A model generated the notes under the pieces. The model worked only from the letters and a program-made list of their open reading frames with translations, made no database searches and was not told where the DNA came from. Source: Escherichia phage W143. From it: a stretch of DNA of 64,000 nt. Below are positions 17,723-27,754 of this stretch, in pieces. Positions within the stretch are counted from its first letter, which is position 1. Each line of letters begins with the position of its first letter. A program made the position numbers and the translations under genes. The DNA is taken from sequence record MZ189262.1; one strand, 5' to 3'.

Positions 17723-17752
17723 ACTATAACACAACACGAGGGACTTGTAAAC
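17723..17752 (-). promoter_or_regulatory. early promoter GTTTAC-N18-TATAGT for the 96-aa ORF
   Basis: -35 GTTTAC (plus 17747-17752, overlapping the stop codon of the upstream alt paralog) and -10 TATAGT (plus 17723-17728); part of a 54-bp block repeated at 32815-32868. Confidence 0.7.
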
Positions 17753-19809
17753 TACATTTTGAACTTTTTAGACATTCCGTTGATGTTAACCAAAGAAGCC
17801 AAGATTTGAGAAACTTCGTTTTCCTCTTCTTTTGATTCTTCTACAAGGAATTGATTAAACCCAGTCATTGGACGAACTTCACCAGTTTCCATTAGATGGT
17901 CGCCATCATATACCGATTCTTCTAATTGTTCAGAAGGAGGAACGATTGTGCCTTCGATTAGATACTTGTTATAAGCAGTTTCTTTCATCATGTACGTACT
18001 CACTTTATTAATCTTCAGCAAAATTCCACGTGGTAAAATAACTTCAGCTTCTGATGGAAATCCTGATAAATGACCTGGAACGATAACTTTGATTCGCTCA
18101 GCTCCTTTAATTACCATACCCACGCTAGTTTCAGCATCTTCATTCGCATAAGCAGAGTGACTGCCCATATGCATTAAATCTTCTGCATCAACTGAACCTT
18201 CTCCTTCACCAGAAAATACTGCGCCGGAATCATCTAGAGCCATATAGTTTTTACCATACTCACCGAAGATATTTGGTTTAAGCGATGTGGATACGAAGTT
18301 CTTGAAGTAGAACATTTTATTTTCAATATTATGACGTAAAGTTTTAAAGGTAACTTCTTGCCCACGGTAAAGTGTAGTTCCTGGAGGAAGAACTGATCCT
18401 TTGGCAAAGGCAGAATCCATTGTCTCGATGTGTTTAATAGCTCGTTCCATATATTCTTCACGAGTAGAATCTGGTTTACCCAAAAGGAACGAGTTCATTT
18501 CAACATATGAATCTGCACAATAATCTTCAATTACATCGGACTCAGCCTGAGTTAATCCTTTTGGGGGTACTTCAGTACTTGCATATTCATACGCTTGAGA
18601 AGCAGACTCATTAATCAATTTATAAATGCCATTCATGACAAATTGAATAATAGCTACCTTTTCATCTGGCGTGGCTTTAGAACCTTTAACTAAATCATTG
18701 ACAATTTTCTTAATAACATCAAAGCTATTAGAAATATTAATGTCAGCAAGATCGCTTAAAATTTTATCGGTTTTATAATCAAAGAATTCTTTATTCTTTA
18801 AATATTCTTGAGAACCTTGATATGTTATATCGTTCTGCAATCTGATAGACGGATCACGTAAACGTGCATGGGCCAATGCAATATGATTTCGGAAGCTTTC
18901 TAGTTCATAATCGTTAGATTTAAAACGAGAAGCACTTCTCATACCACCGATAGCTCCTTTGCTGAAGTTTGAACCAATCTGAATAACGCCAGAGTTCATT
19001 GGTCCTTCTGCTTTATATACCGGAACTTTAGATTCAAACTCTTGATATTTCTTAGCAGCGAAGCTATCGCCCTGAAGTGAAGCATCGACAGTAGAGTATT
19101 GAGCTTGTGCTGCTAATCGACGACTAATTTTAGTTTTCTGAATAACAGCTTGATCCGTACGCTTATCATTTTCTAAAGCAATAGAAGCAGCAACAGCAAC
19201 AGCTTTAGGAACAGCATTACCTGTTTTAACGTCTACATAAACATCACCAACCTTTGATTCAACTTTTGTGAATAACTCAGTTGAAATAGGAGGTACACCT
19301 GGAATGTCTTCTAAATTGGCATTTTTACGGTAAACCATAATATATGCGTACTTTTTATCGTAATCCCAGATTTCCTTTAAAAGAACATATCGACCTGCTC
19401 CTTTAGTACGTACTAAACGGTCAGCGATAACTTGCATTTGACGAGCTGCACCGTTTGTTTTACTCTTTAGTACGCGGAATAAGCATGCATCAATTTTATA
19501 CTGTTTCATTGTCTGAAGAGCGGTATCAAAAACCGCATTAATGACACCAATTGGATTTCCACCTAAGTTTTTAAGTTTAACTAATGATAGTTTCTCGTTG
19601 ACACCTATCATTACGATATGCATCATTTTATCGCCTGGCTTAACGTTTTTGTTTGTATCACCGCCAGAGGTGTATGTACAAAATCTAAATCCAGGAAGCA
19701 CGCTTTCTTCACCGGCTTGAATAGCAAAAATTTGAGGTATTTTATGCTTAGGATTTAAGTTAACAACCGGCGCCGAAGCGCCGTCAAATAATTCTGTAAT
19801 AAGTTCCAT
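17752..19809 (-). CDS. Alt-like ADP-ribosyltransferase, second full-length paralog
   Basis: 685 aa; N-terminus MELITELFD... shared with Alt; conserved core (IDACLFRVLKSKT..., GRYVLLKEIWDYDKKYAYI); ART catalytic signature R (TLYRGQ), S-T-S (FVSTSL), E-x-E (EAEVILPRG); central region diverged. Confidence 0.85.
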   Translation of the reverse strand: MELITELFDGASAPVVNLNPKHKIPQIFAIQAGEESVLPGFRFCTYTSGGDTNKNVKPGDKMMHIVMIGVNEKLSLVKLKNLGGNPIGVINAVFDTALQTMKQYKIDACLFRVLKSKTNGAARQMQVIADRLVRTKGAGRYVLLKEIWDYDKKYAYIMVYRKNANLEDIPGVPPISTELFTKVESKVGDVYVDVKTGNAVPKAVAVAASIALENDKRTDQAVIQKTKISRRLAAQAQYSTVDASLQGDSFAAKKYQEFESKVPVYKAEGPMNSGVIQIGSNFSKGAIGGMRSASRFKSNDYELESFRNHIALAHARLRDPSIRLQNDITYQGSQEYLKNKEFFDYKTDKILSDLADINISNSFDVIKKIVNDLVKGSKATPDEKVAIIQFVMNGIYKLINESASQAYEYASTEVPPKGLTQAESDVIEDYCADSYVEMNSFLLGKPDSTREEYMERAIKHIETMDSAFAKGSVLPPGTTLYRGQEVTFKTLRHNIENKMFYFKNFVSTSLKPNIFGEYGKNYMALDDSGAVFSGEGEGSVDAEDLMHMGSHSAYANEDAETSVGMVIKGAERIKVIVPGHLSGFPSEAEVILPRGILLKINKVSTYMMKETAYNKYLIEGTIVPPSEQLEESVYDGDHLMETGEVRPMTGFNQFLVEESKEEENEVSQILASLVNINGMSKKFKM

Positions 19810-19812
19810 GAT

Positions 19813-21870
19813 TTATCCTTGAACGAACTTGTAAGGCATGTTTGTAATATCTATGCAAGACGCAATAATTCCGAGAGATGATTCTGCTTTCTGTTTAACA
19901 TTTGATGAAACAAATGATGCAAAGTCAACTCTGTCTTCTATTTCAATATCATCTGTCATTGCAACCAATTCACCAGTTTCCATTAGACGATCACCGTCAT
20001 AAATTACCGATTCGGTGAGTTCTTCCGTAGTCATAACTTCAGCTTGAATAAGCTTGTTGTTAGTTTTAACTGTTCCATCATTGTAAGATGCATCGGTTAT
20101 TTTATTAATTTTGACCATTAGTCCACGTGGCAAAATGACTTCCATTTCATTTGAAGGCGCTAAACTTCCACCGGGTAAAACAACATTGACTTTATCAGCT
20201 CCAGTAATAACCCATCCAATTCCAACTAAATTATCGCTAGAATTAACAAGCCCTTCATCATTTTTATCGATAGAAATGCTTAGACGCTTTTCATCTGGTA
20301 AAACACCCACAGCTGAATCAGTCATCCAAGTACCAAAAATGTTTGGATATAATGATGTTGATACAAAATTTCTAAAATAAAAAACTCGATTTTTTACCAA
20401 TGCTTCATATATTGAAGGTAACATTCGCTGTGAACGATATAAAGTAATACCTTTTGGCAATCGATCACCATTTTTAAAGGCTGAATCTAAATTATCGATG
20501 GCTTGTTCTATTTCGGGTGCTGTCAAAATACTTGTACGCTCATCTGGATTATATAATCCCAAAAGAGCATTATTCATGTCTACATATCCTGAACCCACAT
20601 ATTCACGAATTCCGCGTTTTTGAGCCGGTGTGTATTTAGATGAATCTTTATTTTCGACTATAGAATGCAATGACCATCCAACGGTAAGAGCATATCCACG
20701 TAATTCTCTTCGAATAATCTTTGTTTTTATTGCATTCCAAGAATTTTGCACTAACTCATTTGCAGCATCTTGATTTAAATGCGAATGCTTGTTAATATTT
20801 CTTTCTAACCAAGCACTTTTATATTTTTCTAAAGTATCATCGACTATAGAAGCAATAGTTTCTAAAGTTTTTATTGAAGTAATAGATTCTTTTCGTAATC
20901 TTTCTAAAGCTTTATTTTTTATTTCTGCATTAACATCAGATTCTTTATCTTCAGGAATTATAGAAGCTTCTCTGAATGCCATTCCAGCTGTAACACTATT
21001 AAGAGCATTTTCTAATGCAAATCCTGAAGTAGAAATAACGGTTAATTCGTTAGCATCAGAAATTAAAGGCGCGTCGGCGGGTTTATTTAATTCTGCTGCT
21101 GAAGCCTCAAATTTTTGAAACATTGGTGTTTCAAATCTAGAAGATTCCAATGACTGACTTTGTGCAATTGCTCTACGTGAAATTTTAACTTTAACTATTA
21201 CAGCCTGGTCAGAACGTTTATCGTTTTCTTGCGCAATAGATGCTGCAATTGCCTCATTTTTAGTTACTTGAACCCCAGTATCTTTATTGATATAAACATC
21301 GCCGACTTTCGATTCAACTTTAGTAAAGAGCTCGGTACTAATTTCCGGAACTCCTGGAATGTCTTCTAGTGATACATTTTTGCGATGTATAAGAATATAT
21401 GCATACTTTTTATCATAATCCCAGAGTTCCTTAAGAAGGACGTATCTGCCGCCTGAACGACTACGGATAAGTCTATCAGCAATAACTTGAATTTGACGAG
21501 CTTGACCAGCAGTTTTAGACTTAAGAATACGAAGCATGCAGGCATCAATTTTATACTGACGCATCGTCTGCATTGCAACAGTAAAAACTGAATTGATATA
21601 ATTAATTGGGCTTGGACCGAGACCTTTCAATTTAGCAATTGAACCTTTAGCAGTTAATGTAAAAGGAACAATATGCATCATTTTATCGCCCATTTTTAAA
21701 TCGCGATTAGTATCACCTCCAGATGTATAGGTACATAAACGAAAGCCTGGTTGTTCAATTGCGTCATCAACATGAACTGAAAAAATTTGTGGTATTTTCT
21801 TCTTTGGATTTAAGTTTGTAATCGGAAGAGTAGTATCTTCGTCAAATAATTCTGTAATAAGTTCCATCAT
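19813..21870 (-). CDS. alt: Alt ADP-ribosyltransferase (head-packaged, injected)
   Basis: 685 aa; matches T4 Alt; R (TLYRSQ), FVSTSL, EMEVILPRG motifs; late promoter upstream. Confidence 0.92.
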   Translation of the reverse strand: MMELITELFDEDTTLPITNLNPKKKIPQIFSVHVDDAIEQPGFRLCTYTSGGDTNRDLKMGDKMMHIVPFTLTAKGSIAKLKGLGPSPINYINSVFTVAMQTMRQYKIDACMLRILKSKTAGQARQIQVIADRLIRSRSGGRYVLLKELWDYDKKYAYILIHRKNVSLEDIPGVPEISTELFTKVESKVGDVYINKDTGVQVTKNEAIAASIAQENDKRSDQAVIVKVKISRRAIAQSQSLESSRFETPMFQKFEASAAELNKPADAPLISDANELTVISTSGFALENALNSVTAGMAFREASIIPEDKESDVNAEIKNKALERLRKESITSIKTLETIASIVDDTLEKYKSAWLERNINKHSHLNQDAANELVQNSWNAIKTKIIRRELRGYALTVGWSLHSIVENKDSSKYTPAQKRGIREYVGSGYVDMNNALLGLYNPDERTSILTAPEIEQAIDNLDSAFKNGDRLPKGITLYRSQRMLPSIYEALVKNRVFYFRNFVSTSLYPNIFGTWMTDSAVGVLPDEKRLSISIDKNDEGLVNSSDNLVGIGWVITGADKVNVVLPGGSLAPSNEMEVILPRGLMVKINKITDASYNDGTVKTNNKLIQAEVMTTEELTESVIYDGDRLMETGELVAMTDDIEIEDRVDFASFVSSNVKQKAESSLGIIASCIDITNMPYKFVQG

Positions 21871-21890
21871 ATCCTCTCTAGTGTTTATTC

Positions 21891-21898
21891 TATTTATA
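21891..21898 (-). promoter_or_regulatory. late promoter TATAAATA for alt
   Basis: Minus-strand TATAAATA (plus TATTTATA 21891-21898) 21 nt upstream of alt ATG. Confidence 0.75.
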
Positions 21899-21903
21899 AA
21901 ATT

Positions 21904-21921
21904 AAAGGCCCGAAGGCCTTT
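21904..21921 (-). terminator. stem-loop (AAAGGCC-CGAA-GGCCTTT) between the 62-aa ORF and alt
   Basis: 7-bp GC stem with GNRA-type loop followed by a T-rich tract on the minus strand. Confidence 0.5.
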
Positions 21922-22108
21922 AATAATCTATTGGTAAGAGAGTACGGTATATTTCAAACTTTGGACCTTTTTCATAGGCATCAAATGTTTCTGTGAATTT
22001 ATTATAAGCATATGCATCTATAAATTCAATCATAATTTGTGATACAGAAGTAGAAACATCTCCACCTTCTTTTTGAGCAACGACAATTGTTTCTAAGTAA
22101 GCTTTCAT
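21920..22108 (-). CDS. hypothetical protein, 62 aa
   Basis: ORF MKAYLETIVVAQKEGG... whose start overlaps the ligase stop (ATGA coupling). Confidence 0.5.
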   Translation of the reverse strand: MKAYLETIVVAQKEGGDVSTSVSQIMIEFIDAYAYNKFTETFDAYEKGPKFEIYRTLLPIDY

Positions 22109-23568
22109 AGACCAGTTACCTCATGAAAATCACCAAATACATCCTCGAATGTATTAGCTTTAGTTTTATCTTCACGTAAACGAATCGCAATCGGAAGAAA
22201 TAATTTAACGTAATCAGTGCGGCCATCAGATTTTAACCAACCGTTGCATTCGCACTCTAGAATTTTTCCAATATAATAATTTTGGTTTTCCATAATGCGA
22301 GTACGGTCAAGTTCATGTGATTTTACACCGGCTTTATCTTTTAAGCCTGAACCAGCATTTACTTTAATTTTTCCACACTCTGATTCAAGAATAAATCCAC
22401 CTGCTTTAGTAGGGTCTTTACGGTGAGGATAAATTCCTACAATTTTTAAATCAACATCAATTACTTCTTTAAATTTATAGAGATTTTTTGAACGAGCATT
22501 TTCCCATAATCCATCGATATTTTTGAGAATAATACCTTCAAGACCTTGGTCAATATACTTTTTATAAATTACCTTAGCTTCATCTAGGTTATTTACTAGC
22601 TGGTTTTCAATTAAAATTACTTTATCATATCCTGATGTCATTTGTTCTAGTTTAGAAAAACGTACATCATATTTTAAACGAAACGCCGGAAGACCGTATA
22701 TTTCTACCAACGGGACATAATCCCAGACCTGAAACTTCATACATTGAGCTTCTTTTTCAGAAATGGTTCCTTTTAAAGATTTATTGGCGATTCCATTAGA
22801 AGTAGTACGAGATTCCGCTACTTCGGCGAATTCTTTAGCTTTACTAATTTCAGGATAAGCATCAAAAAGAAAATCTAGGCCTTCTGGTTCCTTTTTAACT
22901 TGCTCATGGTATACCAATTCGCCATCAATTAACACGCCTTCTGGATGAATCTGGCGGGCTTCAGCAGTCATTTTGATTAACTCTTCCTTAAGAAGATCTA
23001 ATCCTAGATATTCATTACCAGCTCGTGATAAAAGACGAACATCATCTAATTCATCACCTCGGACTTCAGCAAAACACCGAGCTCCATCTGCTTTTAACTG
23101 TGCAAAAGCTGGAAACTTGATATTCTTACTAATGCCTTTTTCATCATAAGAACTTGCCAGCATTTGAGGTTGTTCAGGAATTAAACCTGGCCAAACTTTG
23201 TTTGCAATAGATACTGAAGCACCGCATTCAAGGTCTCGCATCATAACTCGACGTAAAACTTCAACATCATCCTTTTTACCATCAGTGATATATCCAGTTA
23301 ATTCCTCAATTGCTGCATTTCCAGTCAATTTCCGAGTAGCTAACGTAAATTCAATAAAGTCAAGCATATCGGTAATGGTCAGCATTCCAAAACTCTGGGT
23401 AGCAATACCAGGCTTAGGCCATTTCTTGATATAATACTGTAACCCACGAGAATAAGTCAGACGATATACTCGTTTAAGCAATTCATTACCTTTATTCTTT
23501 TCAAGAATTGCTTGCTTCTGCTTAGTTGATCCAATAGATGCTATTTCATTCAGAATTTTAAGAATCAT
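22105..23568 (-). CDS. 30: ATP-dependent DNA ligase gp30
   Basis: 487 aa, MILKILNEIASIGSTKQKQAILEKNK...; adenylation motif KADGAR; matches T4 DNA ligase. Confidence 0.97.
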   Translation of the reverse strand: MILKILNEIASIGSTKQKQAILEKNKGNELLKRVYRLTYSRGLQYYIKKWPKPGIATQSFGMLTITDMLDFIEFTLATRKLTGNAAIEELTGYITDGKKDDVEVLRRVMMRDLECGASVSIANKVWPGLIPEQPQMLASSYDEKGISKNIKFPAFAQLKADGARCFAEVRGDELDDVRLLSRAGNEYLGLDLLKEELIKMTAEARQIHPEGVLIDGELVYHEQVKKEPEGLDFLFDAYPEISKAKEFAEVAESRTTSNGIANKSLKGTISEKEAQCMKFQVWDYVPLVEIYGLPAFRLKYDVRFSKLEQMTSGYDKVILIENQLVNNLDEAKVIYKKYIDQGLEGIILKNIDGLWENARSKNLYKFKEVIDVDLKIVGIYPHRKDPTKAGGFILESECGKIKVNAGSGLKDKAGVKSHELDRTRIMENQNYYIGKILECECNGWLKSDGRTDYVKLFLPIAIRLREDKTKANTFEDVFGDFHEVTGL

Positions 23569-23834
23569 TGTTCATCCTTCAGAGTTTGATTTACATTTCT
23601 ATTATAAATCAATTCATCATTAAGCTCAGGCAAAGACTTATGATATGTAGTTCTAACTTTATTTCCTTGCATCCAGTGCTTGACGTAAATGAAACCTTGC
23701 TCTACACATTTTTTAAAAATTCGTTCATCCTTTTGAGCACGGAACTCTGGATTACATCTAAAAAATTGATTTACGTGACCGTAATCACGTGTAGTATTAC
23801 CTTCATTTTCATAAATAGTATGAACAACAAACAT
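23565..23834 (-). CDS. 30.1: hypothetical protein (T4 30.1 position)
   Basis: 89-aa ORF translationally coupled to neighbours. Confidence 0.7.
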   Translation of the reverse strand: MFVVHTIYENEGNTTRDYGHVNQFFRCNPEFRAQKDERIFKKCVEQGFIYVKHWMQGNKVRTTYHKSLPELNDELIYNRNVNQTLKDEQ

Positions 23835-24673
23835 TAGAATGCTCCTTGAAAAATATTATCACCACTAGTAGGTCTATTATACAAATACTCTATGCCACCA
23901 GGTTTAATATAGTTCCATGTCTGAAACGGATGTGTCTGATATGGATGATATAGATGATTATAAGGATTTAATCCAGGCGTTCTCCAGGTAGTGTTCCAAG
24001 GAAAAGAATCGTTTTTAACCATCTTCTCAATTAAATCTTTTATAGCTTTTTCACTATCAAAACTTTCTTTATTTTCCTTTAGTGAAAAAAGCTTATTTTC
24101 TACATCATTCCATGTATAAACTCGCTGCGCAGTTTTTGGAATATTGTCACGCTCTCCTCGAGCCATCCAATAAACTGGAACATTTAATATTTCACTCGCA
24201 TGATCGCAGTGATGGGCGAGATCGTCAATATAACAAATTACGTTATATTTCTCTTTTGCCTTTTTGAACAGCTCTTCTTTTGAAGAATCATGACCACACA
24301 TCATTACTTCTGAGAAGGCACCAGGAAAAAGAGCATTCAAATTAAATTGACGATTCAACAGAGCGTCAATAGAATCACCCAATGCTGTAACAGCTACAAA
24401 ATTATAATCTTCTTTTAATTTGTTAATTACACACAGGGCATCTTTATATGGAGACAAGTAACGAATAAAATCTGATCGATTGTATTTTTCAATTAACTTG
24501 ACACCAAGTTCTTCATCACAATTAAAGAGTTTACCTGGAGAAATAAATTTCTCATCTTGGATCATTTTTAAAATATGTTCTAACGGAAGATTATATTTCT
24601 GAGCAAAATAAGGAAGACCTGATTGCCAGCTTAAACATACTCCATCAATATCAGTTAAAATAGTAGGCTTCAT
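23834..24673 (-). CDS. 30.2: HAD-like hydrolase/nucleotidase candidate (T4 30.2 position)
   Basis: 279 aa; N-terminal ILTDIDGV (HAD motif I DxDGx) and later acidic YIDD segment. Confidence 0.7.
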   Translation of the reverse strand: MKPTILTDIDGVCLSWQSGLPYFAQKYNLPLEHILKMIQDEKFISPGKLFNCDEELGVKLIEKYNRSDFIRYLSPYKDALCVINKLKEDYNFVAVTALGDSIDALLNRQFNLNALFPGAFSEVMMCGHDSSKEELFKKAKEKYNVICYIDDLAHHCDHASEILNVPVYWMARGERDNIPKTAQRVYTWNDVENKLFSLKENKESFDSEKAIKDLIEKMVKNDSFPWNTTWRTPGLNPYNHLYHPYQTHPFQTWNYIKPGGIEYLYNRPTSGDNIFQGAF

Positions 24674-25134
24674 AGAGAGTCTCTTAATAGGTTTAACACA
24701 TCAATAAATTCAGCTTCGGTTAGTATTGTATCATCTTTTGTTAGACCACTAGCCATGCTGTGCTTCAAAACTTTTCCTTTCGAGGCTTGTAATGCATCGC
24801 GAAAGCCCTTGTTTTGGAACGCTGCTTCAAAATATGCATTTGTGTATAATTCTTTCCACGCTGGAGAGTATCTTGAAAATGGAACTCCAATCCAGAACAA
24901 CGTGCCACGGTCCTGAGCTCTAGCGTAAGACCTTCCAGCTTGTTGGGCGGCAAGCCCGGATAACCCAAATATACGTCTTTGCTGTTCAACATTTTTCACC
25001 TTACATCCTTGGAGGAATCCTTCGAGACCTCCAAATTGGATACCATCCATAACAAAAGGCCATTGGGCGAAATTACTTAATGCACATGATGGCCATCTAA
25101 AATTGCTTCTTATCTCTAGCTCAGACATTTTCAA
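24670..25134 (-). CDS. 30.3: NADAR/YbiA-family (DUF1768-like) protein (T4 30.3 position)
   Basis: 154 aa; SNFAQWPFVMDGIQFGGLEGFLQGCK parallels E. coli YbiA FSNFAAWPIKVDGKTWPTSEHYFQAQK (recalled). Confidence 0.75.
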   Translation of the reverse strand: MKMSELEIRSNFRWPSCALSNFAQWPFVMDGIQFGGLEGFLQGCKVKNVEQQRRIFGLSGLAAQQAGRSYARAQDRGTLFWIGVPFSRYSPAWKELYTNAYFEAAFQNKGFRDALQASKGKVLKHSMASGLTKDDTILTEAEFIDVLNLLRDSL

Positions 25135-25327
25135 TACTTATAATTTCAACATCAGCCCAATGACCATAGCAAGGAAGACGAAATTCAACTGGCCAGTTAG
25201 GGTCCTTTTCTAATATAATAGACTGAACTTGTGGCTCTTCATATTCATCGGTATACGGACCTTTATACGTTACTTTATATGTGACCTTAATGTACTGAAT
25301 TCCAAAAATCTTATTAATTATATTCAT
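25121..25327 (-). CDS. 30.4: hypothetical protein (T4 30.4 position)
   Basis: 68-aa ORF, coupled overlaps with neighbours. Confidence 0.6.
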   Translation of the reverse strand: MNIINKIFGIQYIKVTYKVTYKGPYTDEYEEPQVQSIILEKDPNWPVEFRLPCYGHWADVEIISIENV

Positions 25328-25521
25328 ACTAATTCCTTTAATCCGTAAATAGGAGATAATTCATCACCCATACGAAGGTCTTCATTTCCATCTACCCAGG
25401 AAACAATATAAGCCTCTTTTATTTGAATACCACTCCATTTAAATGGAGGTAGAACCTTAGAAATTAATCCAGGTATACCGACTCCCTTTAATTCAACAGT
25501 TTGACCCAAAAAGAATTTCAT
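25324..25521 (-). CDS. 30.5: hypothetical protein (T4 30.5 position)
   Basis: 65-aa ORF. Confidence 0.6.
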   Translation of the reverse strand: MKFFLGQTVELKGVGIPGLISKVLPPFKWSGIQIKEAYIVSWVDGNEDLRMGDELSPIYGLKELV

Positions 25522-25808
25522 TAGAACCTCATCTGAAAACCATGCGATTTAACATTACCGCCGTCAATATCAGAAATGTTAATTTCACGCGCAATTGAAG
25601 GGTCAATGTCAATTTCACGATTGAGTTTAGCGATAGCTAGAGTATCACGCCCATTTACAGTACGGAACTCTAAAGGGCAGACTGCATTAACATAGTTTTT
25701 AATCGATTCACTAGTAGGCTGCAAATGAGCAGGAAGGTCTTTAGGCGCCTTTGAGAAAACCACTTCACAGAAATTTTTGCGGGTATCAAAATAAGTAGTC
25801 ATAAACAT
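25521..25808 (-). CDS. 30.6: hypothetical protein (T4 30.6 position)
   Basis: 95-aa ORF; GAGGA SD upstream of ATG 25808. Confidence 0.65.
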   Translation of the reverse strand: MFMTTYFDTRKNFCEVVFSKAPKDLPAHLQPTSESIKNYVNAVCPLEFRTVNGRDTLAIAKLNREIDIDPSIAREINISDIDGGNVKSHGFQMRF

Positions 25809-25848
25809 AGTATTTTCCTCAGTAAGGGGCCGAAGCCCCTATTTTATT

Positions 25849-26214
25849 TTAAATATCAAATTCGTTAAGAACTACATCAAAGATCGCTTCAAGATGCTCA
25901 GGTTTAGCTCTGTTACTCAGAATATGACGAATCCAAGTTTTAACCAGAAGCTTACGATTGACGCCATTCCAGCAAGGATGAGTCCCTAAATCACGTTGAC
26001 GGAAATCATCATCTAATGCGATTTTAAAAGAAGAACCTTCTTTCGTGATTGAAACCGTGATGCCATTTTCAAATCGCATATAAACGTAGTTAGGAGTCAT
26101 ATACTGTTCAATTTCGCATACTGATCCATTTTGATGTTTCCAAAGGCAGATAGTATCAATAGAACCTGCAATACCGTTAGAAACATATTTACGTTCAAAG
26201 TTGATGTAGTTCAT
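25849..26214 (-). CDS. 30.7: hypothetical protein (T4 30.7 position)
   Basis: 121-aa ORF. Confidence 0.7.
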   Translation of the reverse strand: MNYINFERKYVSNGIAGSIDTICLWKHQNGSVCEIEQYMTPNYVYMRFENGITVSITKEGSSFKIALDDDFRQRDLGTHPCWNGVNRKLLVKTWIRHILSNRAKPEHLEAIFDVVLNEFDI

Positions 26215-26282
26215 TTTTATTCTCCGAGATGTTTAATTGCGGTACAGGTATATAATATCATATCCTGTACCAAAGTAAACAA

Positions 26283-26615
26283 TTATTTTACTACTTTCCA
26301 GTGCTGCATGTCAAGTTTACCAACTTTTTTCATCTTCTCAATTAAGCGTTCGGCACGTTGGCGAGCTGTAACATAATACCATTCACCCAATTCATTTTGT
26401 TCAATTTTTCCAACGATTACTGTATTCAATTCATAAATCCAACCAGTAAAGAAATTATGAACTTGAATTGTAAAGGTGAAATCTGTTCCCATACCTTCTG
26501 TTGTTTCTACTTCAATAATATCACCTTCAACTGCCATTAAGAACCACATAGTTTCATCATATTTACCATTGAAGCATTTAGTTTTAACTGTGGCGTTCAG
26601 ATTAATCGTTTTCAT
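26283..26615 (-). CDS. 30.8: hypothetical protein (T4 30.8 position)
   Basis: 110-aa ORF; early-type promoter upstream (GTTTAC at plus 26667-26672). Confidence 0.7.
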   Translation of the reverse strand: MKTINLNATVKTKCFNGKYDETMWFLMAVEGDIIEVETTEGMGTDFTFTIQVHNFFTGWIYELNTVIVGKIEQNELGEWYYVTARQRAERLIEKMKKVGKLDMQHWKVVK

Positions 26616-26725
26616 TTTATTCTCCTTTGTTTGTGTAAGATAATACTATCACAAAGGAACTATACTGTAAACAACTTTATGCAATCTTTGGAAAATAAAA
26701 AAGGACTCCCGAAGGAGTCCTCAAC

Positions 26726-26902
26726 TTATGCTTTCTGCTTACCAAAACGAGAAGCATCATCTCGAAGAACCGCACGTGCTCGGCGCATGATCTTCTCAAC
26801 AGTTTGATTGATACGAGAGTTCGACCCACGCTTGTAACCAGCGCGTTTAGAATCACCAACTTTCTTTTCAACTGCTTTCTTTGCTTTAGCTTGTTTTGCC
26901 AT
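26726..26902 (-). CDS. 30.9: small basic protein, 58 aa (T4 30.9 position)
   Basis: MAKQAKAKKAVEKKVGDSKRAGYKRG... from ATG 26902; the ORF-track start at 26944 is an N-terminal over-extension. Confidence 0.6.
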   Translation of the reverse strand: MAKQAKAKKAVEKKVGDSKRAGYKRGSNSRINQTVEKIMRRARAVLRDDASRFGKQKA

Positions 26903-27022
26903 TATAAATTCTCTTTTAAATGAAAATGCAGGACTTATTGGCATTGCCTGCGCAGGCCCTCAAGGGGAACATAGGTTTTTGAATATTTAACGACCAGGAT
27001 AACCATAAACCCGTCATCATAC

Positions 27023-27271
27023 TTACTTCAGTGTTACCACAAAGTGACGAACTGCTTTTCGTGCGGCAGAAGCCAGAGGCTTAGCATACTTAAGTTCATC
27101 TTTTTCCTGGAGCTCAGCAGCTAATGCAGTTTGAGCAGGATTCAGATGTTTGAAATAACGCAGGATTTCAAGAGCTTCGGCTTCAACATCAATAGATGCG
27201 CCATAGTTTTCGTGACCATTATTCCATGCGTTTCGTTGCAGTTCAAGAGCGTGTTGTAATTGTTTAATCAT
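27023..27271 (-). CDS. rIII: rIII lysis-inhibition accessory protein
   Basis: 82 aa, MIKQLQHALELQRNAWNNGHENYG...; matches T4 rIII. Confidence 0.85.
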   Translation of the reverse strand: MIKQLQHALELQRNAWNNGHENYGASIDVEAEALEILRYFKHLNPAQTALAAELQEKDELKYAKPLASAARKAVRHFVVTLK

Positions 27272-27418
27272 TTAAAAATTCTCGTTAGAGATTAAAACTC
27301 GGTAGTCACGTTCTTCTGAATTTCATCTTCTTTCGACAGATCTCTCAGTTGTAGACTACCACGTAGAATTGTTCGGTTAACTTATTATTCCGACACCCAA
27401 TTCATATTATTATTTATA

Positions 27419-27754
27419 TCACTTATAAAGACACGGAATAGCTTTATAGTGACAAGTAACGAATTTTTGTTTAATTTCTTTTGGCTGCTTAAGACCCAGA
27501 GCTACAAAAGGATGCGGAACGTTTCGAATTTGACCAACTGGAAGAGAAGTCAAATCACCAACTTCACAGAAACCTTCAGGAACATCAGGACCAACAGAGT
27601 GAACTACACACAGTTCAGGAACTTCACCTTGAACACGTTTACCGATAATAAGTCCTGATTCTGTAACTTCTTCATCACCGGCTTGCGCAGGTTCAGAAAC
27701 TAAAATAACATATTCACCGACAGCACGAATTGGTAGCTGTTGTACTTCAGACAT
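27419..27754 (-). CDS. 31: co-chaperonin gp31 (GroES analog)
   Basis: 111 aa, [29 protein letters not shown]...; matches T4 gp31. Confidence 0.95.

What the first reader, a model, noticed from the sequence alone, without database searches (positions are those of the whole stretch)
23834..25134. NADAR-like and HAD-like enzymes next to DNA ligase, in a phage with two injected ADP-ribosyltransferases
The 154-aa ORF (24670-25134) has the conserved block SNFAQWPFVMDGIQFGGLEGFLQGCK, which parallels the YbiA/NADAR family involved in ADP-ribose and N-glycoside processing. The adjacent 279-aa ORF starts with the HAD-phosphatase motif ILTDIDGV. Both sit immediately downstream of the ligase gene. Given the two Alt-type ARTs 3 kb away, a NADAR hydrolase could reverse or edit ADP-ribosylation, including base ADP-ribosylation by host DarT-type toxins. 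This link is speculative.
Basis: inference. Interest (0 to 1): 0.45.

Follow-up and report, generated by a model that had tools for sequence, protein, structure and literature searches.

The report
Known phage anti-DarT enzyme plus phosphatase

Summary
The window is a T4-like phage (Tequatrovirus). The 154-aa ORF is gene 30.3. Its real start is probably the ATG at 25128, giving 152 aa, and it is 149/152 identical to T4 gp30.3. My tests support the NADAR call:
- Pfam Phage_30_3, E=1.7e-69.
- Catalytic E36 and K43, the phage-type H123 and the C-terminal helix are all present.

T4 gp30.3 is already published as AdfN, a guanine-ADP-ribose DNA glycohydrolase that is necessary and sufficient against DarTG1.

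The proposed link to the two Alt enzymes has no support. Verdict: observation confirmed, interpretation essentially right, already known.

The parts
24670..25128 (-). adfN (T4 gene 30.3), 152 aa: phage-type NADAR, a DNA guanine-ADP-ribose glycohydrolase
25021..25023 (-). Codon for Glu36, a catalytic residue of AdfN
   Evidence: Invariant in 49 family members. Aligns with the conserved Glu of YbiA. E36A abolishes counter-defence in T4 AdfN.
25000..25002 (-). Codon for Lys43, a catalytic (phosphate-binding) residue of AdfN
   Evidence: At least 90% conserved. Aligns with the YbiA Lys. K43A is inactive in T4 AdfN.
24760..24762 (-). Codon for His123, the phage-NADAR replacement of the third catalytic acidic residue
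   Evidence: Invariant in the family. The literature states His replaces Glu (YbiA family) or Asp (DarG1) in phage NADARs.
24673..24717 (-). C-terminal helix of AdfN (residues 138-152), intact here
   Evidence: Helix 138-151 in the model. RB69 lacks the last 15 residues through a frameshift and is DarTG1-sensitive.
23834..24673 (-). Gene 30.2, 279 aa: HAD-fold phosphatase with a C-terminal extension
   Evidence: 96% identical to T4 NP_049815. phrog_420 E=5e-93, function unknown. Its start overlaps the adfN stop (ATGA).
24113..24673 (-). HAD catalytic domain of gp30.2 (residues 1-187) with a C1 helical cap (helices 16-86)
24638..24652 (-). HAD motif I, D8-I-D10-G-V12 (nucleophile Asp8, acid/base Asp10)
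   Evidence: D8, D10 and G11 are invariant in 46 homologues; D8 and D10 also in the wider family.
24221..24388 (-). Span holding HAD motifs II (Thr96, 24386-24388), III (Lys132, 24278-24280) and IV (Asp150-Asp151, 24221-24226)
   Evidence: K132 invariant; T96, D150 and D151 at least 90% conserved. They sit at the ends of strands 91-96 and 145-150 and at the start of helix 133-142 in the model.
23837..24112 (-). gp30.2 C-terminal extension: long helix (188-220), then a disordered aromatic/Pro/Asn-rich tail
   Evidence: pLDDT 47-55 from about residue 221. Absent or variable in many homologues, which are about 200 aa.
23565..23834 (-). Gene 30.1 (DUF3045), lying between 30.2 and the ligase gene
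   Evidence: PF11243 E=4.5e-62. T4 annotation.
22105..23568 (-). Gene 30, ATP-dependent DNA ligase (context)
   Evidence: PF01068 E=6.4e-32. T4 annotation.
25121..25327 (-). Gene 30.4; its stop overlaps the adfN start codon (context)
   Evidence: ATGTCTGA overlap. phrog_2042. Insertions in T4 30.4 are mildly depleted on DarTG1.
19813..21870 (-). alt, packaged ADP-ribosyltransferase (context; not functionally linked by any evidence)
   Evidence: 96% identical to T4 Alt. PF03496 E=2.2e-34.
17752..19809 (-). Second full-length alt paralogue (context)
   Evidence: PF03496 E=3.2e-20. 41% identical to alt, with the R / STS / ExE motifs kept.

Best explanation
Two adjacent, independently acting early-region genes of a T4-like phage.

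**Gene 30.3 = adfN.** It encodes a minimal, core-only NADAR enzyme. When a DarTG1-carrying host senses infection, the DarT1 toxin ADP-ribosylates guanine in phage DNA and blocks replication. AdfN binds the ADP-ribosyl-guanine and hydrolyses the N-glycosidic bond using Glu36, Lys43 and His123. This releases ADP-ribose, restores unmodified DNA, and the phage can replicate. The enzyme chemistry and the phenotype are shown in the literature for the 98%-identical T4 protein. Here they are inferred by orthology, fold and conserved residues.

**Gene 30.2.** It encodes a Mg-dependent HAD phosphomonoesterase. Asp8 is the predicted nucleophile forming an aspartyl-phosphate, Asp10 the acid/base, and Thr96, Lys132 and Asp150/151 complete the site. 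A four-helix C1 cap closes over the active site, which argues for a small substrate. It is closest to the NT5C 5'(3')-deoxyribonucleotidase branch, so the most likely substrate is a (deoxy)nucleoside monophosphate. That step is inference only. It is dispensable in the laboratory and is not part of the anti-DarT mechanism.
For: **adfN**
- Identity to T4 gp30.3 is 149/152, with the same gene order as T4.
- PF08010 E=1.7e-69.
- A family profile hits E. coli YbiA (2b3w) as its only PDB match, E=0.005, aligning the SNF...E...K block.
- 18 of 49 family members hit PF08719 NADAR, best E=1.5e-7.
- E36 and H123 are invariant and K43 is at least 90% conserved.
- Literature: AdfN is necessary and sufficient against DarTG1, E36A and K43A are dead, and the purified protein removes ADP-ribose from DNA. 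It hydrolyses guanosine-ADPr but not thymidine-ADPr in vitro. T4 insertions in 30.3 have log2FC -7.25 on a DarTG1 host.

**gp30.2**
- AF2 pLDDT is above 90 for residues 1-200.
- Motif residues D8, D10 and K132 are invariant; T96, D150 and D151 are nearly so.
- The family profile hits the mitochondrial deoxyribonucleotidase 2jao, E=0.046.
- 20 of 40 wider-family members hit PF06941 NT5C, best E=4.2e-10, and that wider family matches the gp30.2 family at hhalign E=5.6e-57.
- Independence from adfN: 30.2 has log2FC -0.12 (p=0.61) on DarTG1.
Against: - The window's gp30.3 does not itself reach PF08719 at E<=1, and its phmmer search of the PDB finds no NADAR. The NADAR link therefore rests on family profiles, the fold and the literature.
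- No enzyme assay exists for this exact allele. It has three substitutions relative to T4 (I80, F104, M125), none at catalytic positions.
- gp30.2 has no Pfam hit of its own. The best NT5C score among close homologues is 22.4 bits, below the 24.8 cutoff.
- There is no substrate data, and no phenotype in LB, M9 or on DarTG1 hosts.
Confidence: 0.9

Rival explanations
1. gp30.3 reverses or edits protein ADP-ribosylation made by the phage's own Alt, ModA or ModB enzymes.
For: Two full-length alt genes lie 2-7 kb away in the same transcription direction. NADARs do act on ADP-ribose conjugates.
Against: - The substrates reported for NADARs in the papers I read are base-linked ADP-ribose on guanine, and on cytidine for some.
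- The decisive phenotype is against host DarT1.
- alt insertions are neutral on DarTG1 hosts (log2FC -0.01).
- In KVP40, 30.3 sits beside a-gt.4 and gene 47, with neither alt nor 30.2 nearby. Distant AdfN-like genes in unrelated large phage contigs have no ADP-ribosyltransferase neighbour.
- I found no published test of AdfN on arginine-ADP-ribose, so this is not formally excluded.
Confidence: 0.04
2. gp30.2 is a cofactor or downstream partner of AdfN, for example disposing of the released ADP-ribose or ribose phosphate. This would be the 'other factor' that makes AdfN work best in T-even infections.
For: The adfN stop overlaps the 30.2 start (ATGA). The 30.3-30.2-ligase order is kept as far away as Acinetobacter phage KARL-1. 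The AdfN paper leaves open that another phage factor is needed for full activity.
Against: - T4 insertions in 30.2 (71 sites) show log2FC -0.12, p=0.61 on DarTG1, while 30.3 shows -7.25.
- AdfN supplied alone in trans fully rescues RB69. RB69's own 30.2 may be present, so this point is weaker.
- Aeromonas phage 25 has 30.2 next to the ligase gene with no 30.3 there, and KVP40 has 30.3 without 30.2 beside it.
- Neighbours of distant AdfN-like genes are unrelated to gp30.2.
Confidence: 0.04
3. gp30.2 is a DNA-end 3'-phosphatase that prepares nicks for the neighbouring ligase, like the HAD domain of T4 Pnkp.
Against: - gp30.2 has a roughly 75-residue C1 cap (helices 16-86). From my own knowledge, DNA 3'-phosphatases of the Pnkp type are capless so that polymers can enter.
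- Only 126-129 core residues align to Pnkp, against 160-180 for capped small-molecule HADs.
- Profile affinities are to NT5C, not PNKP (20 members versus 1).
- The phage already encodes PseT.
Confidence: 0.08
4. gp30.3 is a YbiA-type housekeeping N-glycosidase acting on riboflavin-pathway intermediates.
Against: The defining YbiA-family Glu is replaced by His123. T4 gp30.3 has a demonstrated DNA de-ADP-ribosylation activity and a DarTG1 phenotype.
Confidence: 0.02

Closest known systems
T4 AdfN (gp30.3), anti-DarT factor NADAR (Johannesman et al., Nat Commun 2025, PMC11825919)
   Same: Orthologue: 149/152 identical, same length, same catalytic E36/K43/H123, same intact C-terminal helix, same position between 30.4 and 30.2.
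   Different: Three conservative substitutions (L80I, I104F, I125M relative to T4). This phage carries two full-length alt genes where T4 has one plus remnants. Neither difference is known to matter.
DarG1, the NADAR antitoxin of DarTG1 (e.g. Geobacter lovleyi, PDB 8bat; E. coli C7)
   Different: AdfN is the bare core without the N-terminal extension. It has His where DarG1 has Asp. It is an orphan with no toxin partner. It does not rescue uninfected cells from DarT1 and works best in T-even infections.
E. coli YbiA (PDB 2b3w) and Phytophthora NADAR (PDB 8bau)
   Different: 14-21% identity. Third catalytic residue is Glu rather than His. They have housekeeping or unknown roles, not phage counter-defence.
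5'(3')-deoxyribonucleotidases of the NT5C family (human cdN 6g2n, mdN 2jao; S. epidermidis 3bwv), for gp30.2
   Different: The window protein does not reach the Pfam threshold. It has a 90-residue C-terminal helix plus disordered tail that NT5C enzymes lack. Its substrate is untested.
T4 Pnkp (PseT) 3'-phosphatase domain
   Different: Pnkp is capless and acts on polynucleotide ends. gp30.2 has a large cap and aligns only over the core.

Membership tests
NADAR superfamily (YbiA fold) | YbiA fold: an alpha-helical core flanked by two small beta-sheets | tested here: met
NADAR superfamily (YbiA fold) | Conserved catalytic Glu and Lys seven residues apart (PnNADAR E43/K50) | tested here: met
   E36 is invariant and K43 at least 90% conserved in 49 homologues. 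Both align with the Glu and Lys of YbiA in the profile alignment.
NADAR superfamily (YbiA fold) | Sequence-profile link to NADAR (PF08719) | tested here: met
   There is no direct hit of the window protein to PF08719 at E<=1. The link holds through the family: PF08010 E=1.7e-69; 18/49 family members hit PF08719 (best 1.5e-7); the family profile hits YbiA at E=0.005 as its sole PDB match.
NADAR superfamily (YbiA fold) | ADP-ribosyl-guanine glycohydrolase activity | not testable with these tools
   Shown in vitro for T4 gp30.3 (PMC11125620; PMC11825919; PMC12945103). Not shown for this allele.
Phage NADAR / AdfN (PF08010, T4 gp30.3 orthologues) | His in place of the third catalytic acidic residue, in the last strand | tested here: met
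   H123 is invariant and lies in strand 120-123 of the model.
Phage NADAR / AdfN (PF08010, T4 gp30.3 orthologues) | Full length with the C-terminal helix (its loss in RB69 inactivates the protein) | tested here: met
   152 aa, colinear with T4 to the last residue. Helix 138-151 is present.
Phage NADAR / AdfN (PF08010, T4 gp30.3 orthologues) | Confers resistance to DarTG1 | not testable with these tools
   Shown for T4 and T2 alleles and by T4 transposon sequencing (log2FC -7.25).
HAD superfamily (gp30.2) | Rossmannoid core with strand order and cap insertion typical of HAD | tested here: met
HAD superfamily (gp30.2) | Four catalytic motifs: DxDx(T/V); S/T; K; DD | tested here: met
   D8-I-D10-G-V, T96, K132 and D150-D151, each invariant or at least 90% conserved in 46 homologues. 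D8, D10 and K132 are also invariant in the wider family.
HAD superfamily (gp30.2) | Phosphotransferase or phosphatase activity | not testable with these tools
   I found no biochemical data for gp30.2 (search 'gp30.2': 0 papers).
NT5C 5'(3')-deoxyribonucleotidase family (PF06941) | Score above the Pfam gathering threshold (24.8 bits) | tested here: not met
   The window protein has no Pfam hit. The best close homologue, P0099, scores 22.4 bits. Only more distant relatives reach it (20/40, best E=4.2e-10). I therefore call it 'NT5C-like' and do not file it as a member.
NT5C 5'(3')-deoxyribonucleotidase family (PF06941) | Dephosphorylates dNMPs | not testable with these tools
   No assay available.

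The most novel reading that the evidence does not exclude
gp30.2 may be more than a spare nucleotidase. On this reading it is a Straboviridae-wide, capped NT5C-like phosphatase with a disordered aromatic tail, held next to the DNA ligase gene. It would act under conditions not yet tested, for example as a counter-measure to a nucleotide-based host defence, or in clearing a damaged or modified nucleotide so that it is not built into hydroxymethylcytosine DNA. Its phenotype would appear only on particular wild hosts.
Probability: 0.1. Interest if true: 0.5.

Novelty: already known. Interest (0 to 1): 0.12.

Why it matters
It matches work published in 2023-2025, which is a good sign for sequence-only reading. 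It adds nothing new about adfN. The only open item is gp30.2. It is found in about 1,450 phage genome records, is clearly an enzyme with an intact active site, and has no known substrate or phenotype. Knowing its substrate would fill one of the roughly 100 remaining functional blanks in T4.

Tried and rejected
- **Direct searches of both proteins.** phmmer against PDB sequences gave only chance hits. NCBIfam and PADLOC gave nothing.
- **Is adfN-30.2 adjacency conserved outside T4 synteny?** Two distant AdfN-like genes in large non-T4 contigs (L002, L005) have neighbours of suitable size (254 and 199 aa). hhalign against the gp30.2 family gave probabilities below 1% and there were no Pfam hits. 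Rejected.
- **Is the 139-aa gene next to a distant gp30.2 homologue (L011) a NADAR?** No: hhalign probability 0.65%.
- **30.2 as an AdfN cofactor.** Rejected on the published T4 transposon data.
- **A nutrient-dependent phenotype for 30.2.** None in LB versus M9.
- **Promoter and terminator scan of 21800-27500.** Counts do not exceed shuffles (23 against 20.9; 4 against 2.8). No minus-strand terminator lies between 30.4 and the ligase gene, which is consistent with co-transcription but uninformative.
- **A bridging family member (P0182) against the PDB.** YbiA is again the top hit, but only at E=0.04.
- **Literature search for gp30.2.** Zero papers. A broader search returned only irrelevant papers.

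Full report
**What is there.** The window is a Tequatrovirus (T4-like phage). The 1.9 kb around the finding is 98% identical to Escherichia phage EP01 and matches 683 phage records. All genes in this stretch are on the minus strand, and their order is that of T4:
- 30.4: 25121-25327
- 30.3: 24670-25128
- 30.2: 23834-24673
- 30.1: 23565-23834 (DUF3045)
- gene 30, DNA ligase: 22105-23568
- alt.1, then alt: 19813-21870
- a second full-length alt paralogue: 17752-19809

Stops and starts overlap: ATGTCTGA at 30.4/30.3 and ATGA at 30.3/30.2. A simple scan finds no minus-strand terminator between 30.4 and the ligase gene. Its coordinates need three corrections. The biological start of 30.3 is the ATG at 25128 (152 aa), as in T4. 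The genes are upstream of the ligase gene, not downstream. Gene 30.1 lies between 30.2 and the ligase gene.

**The 152-aa protein is a NADAR, specifically AdfN.**
- It is 149/152 identical to T4 gp30.3 and hits Pfam Phage_30_3 at E=1.7e-69.
- It does not hit the NADAR model PF08719 directly, so I tested the relationship independently.
- An alignment of 49 homologues down to 35% identity gives a profile whose only match among all PDB sequences is E. coli YbiA (E=0.005).
- 18 of the 49 homologues individually hit PF08719, best E=1.5e-7.
- An AlphaFold2 model is confident: pLDDT 93, pTM 0.88.
- Glu36 and His123 are invariant and Lys43 is at least 90% conserved in the family. The C-terminal helix is intact.

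**This is already published.**
- Schuller et al. 2023 (PMC11543638) defined NADARs as guanine-ADP-ribose hydrolases and noted that phage NADARs carry His in place of the third catalytic acidic residue.
- Cihlova et al. 2024 (PMC11125620) showed that T4 gp30.3 hydrolyses guanosine-ADPr but not thymidine-ADPr in vitro.
- Johannesman et al. (bioRxiv 2024; Nat Commun 2025, PMC11825919) renamed it AdfN. They showed it is necessary and sufficient for T-even phages to overcome DarTG1. E36A and K43A abolish this, the purified protein removes ADP-ribose from DNA, and RB69 is sensitive because a frameshift removes the last 15 residues.
- A T4 transposon-sequencing preprint (10.1101/2025.11.20.689424) confirms it. 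On a DarTG1 host, insertions in 30.3 have log2FC -7.25 at adjusted p of 0. I identified that sheet as the DarTG1 comparison by this result and because the next sheet carries the tk.4/DarTG2 hit.

The window's allele has every feature those papers tie to activity.

**The 279-aa protein is a HAD-fold phosphatase, NT5C-like, of unknown substrate.**
- It is 96% identical to T4 gp30.2. It has no Pfam, NCBIfam or PADLOC hit and falls in an unknown-function PHROG.
- Homologues are mostly about 200 aa. The last roughly 90 residues here are an extension.
- Across 46 homologues D8, D10, G11 and K132 are invariant, and T96, D150 and D151 are nearly so. These are HAD motifs I to IV.
- The AlphaFold2 model is confident for residues 1-220. 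It shows the HAD Rossmannoid core with a four-helix C1 cap inserted after strand 1 (helices 16-86), then a long helix (188-220) and a disordered aromatic/Pro/Asn-rich tail.
- The window protein and its close relatives stay below the Pfam threshold. I therefore call it NT5C-like and do not file it as a member.

**Are the two genes a system?** The evidence says no.
- 30.2 and 30.3 are each present in about 1,450-1,510 phage records. The 30.3-30.2-ligase order survives in Acinetobacter phage KARL-1.
- Aeromonas phage 25 has 30.2 next to the ligase gene without 30.3 there.
- KVP40 has 30.3 beside a-gt.4 and gene 47.
- AdfN-like genes in unrelated large phage contigs have no gp30.2-like neighbour.
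- In T4, 30.2 tolerates insertions at all 72 sites. It shows no fitness change on a DarTG1 host (log2FC -0.12, p=0.61) or in minimal medium (log2FC -0.10).
- The more persistent neighbour of 30.2 is the ligase gene. That keeps a DNA-end-phosphatase idea alive at low probability. From my own knowledge, Pnkp-type DNA 3'-phosphatases are capless, so the large cap argues for a small substrate.

**The Alt link.** Both alt genes are real and keep the R / STS / ExE motifs. Nothing connects them to AdfN. The substrates reported for NADARs in the papers I read are base-linked ADP-ribose. alt insertions are neutral on DarTG1. The proximity is inherited T4 gene order.

**Verdict.** The central feature is already known and experimentally characterised. 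gp30.2 is a member of a known kind of enzyme with an unknown role. Interest is low.

Noticed in passing
window 25121-25128 (30.4 stop / adfN start overlap): In the published T4 transposon data, the gene just upstream of adfN (30.4) is also depleted on a DarTG1 host (log2FC -1.79, adjusted p 0.014). In the window its stop codon overlaps the adfN ATG (ATGTCTGA). Polarity or translational coupling is the likely reason, rather than a function of 30.4 itself.
   Followed up: partly
window 17752-19809 and 19813-21870: There are two full-length Alt-type ADP-ribosyltransferase genes in tandem, 41% identical, both with R / STS / ExE motifs intact. T4 keeps only short remnants (alt.-1, alt.-2) of the second copy. 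Aeromonas phage 25 also has two Alt-like genes.
   Followed up: partly
window 23837-24112 (gp30.2 residues 188-279): gp30.2 has a long helix followed by a disordered tail rich in aromatic, Pro and Asn residues. A semi-conserved GIEYxxNxPT motif lies near the C-terminus in some homologues. Many homologues (about 200 aa) lack the tail entirely. It could be a docking peptide; its partner is unknown.
   Followed up: no
relatives of window 24670-25128 (proteins P0104-P0107, P0113-P0118, P0121, P0156, P0197): Several close relatives of AdfN (78-97% identical) in other T4-like phages and metagenomes are truncated (83-126 aa) or fused to other Pfam families. Because the RB69 truncation abolishes counter-defence, natural loss of AdfN may be recurrent. 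Some of these may be contig-end or assembly artefacts.
   Followed up: no
window 24765-24992 (-): A 75-aa ATG ORF lies inside adfN in another reading frame. It corresponds to T4's annotated 30.3' ('internal translation in a different reading frame'). It is retained in this phage. I did not examine evidence for expression.
   Followed up: no
L002 8115-10294; L005 2819-3316: Distant AdfN-like NADAR genes occur in large non-T4 phage-like contigs (308 kb and 82 kb), near Nudix and Thg1-like genes or a GGDEF gene. This shows that the PF08010 subfamily is not confined to T4-like genomes.
   Followed up: no
literature (PMC11125620 methods) versus L001 8308-8766: The 2024 Toxins paper lists its 'T4 phage NADAR (gp30.3)' construct as residues 1-208, whereas T4 gene 30.3 encodes 152 aa. 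The tested protein may carry extra sequence or come from another phage; variants of about 201 aa exist (P0130, P0131).
   Followed up: no
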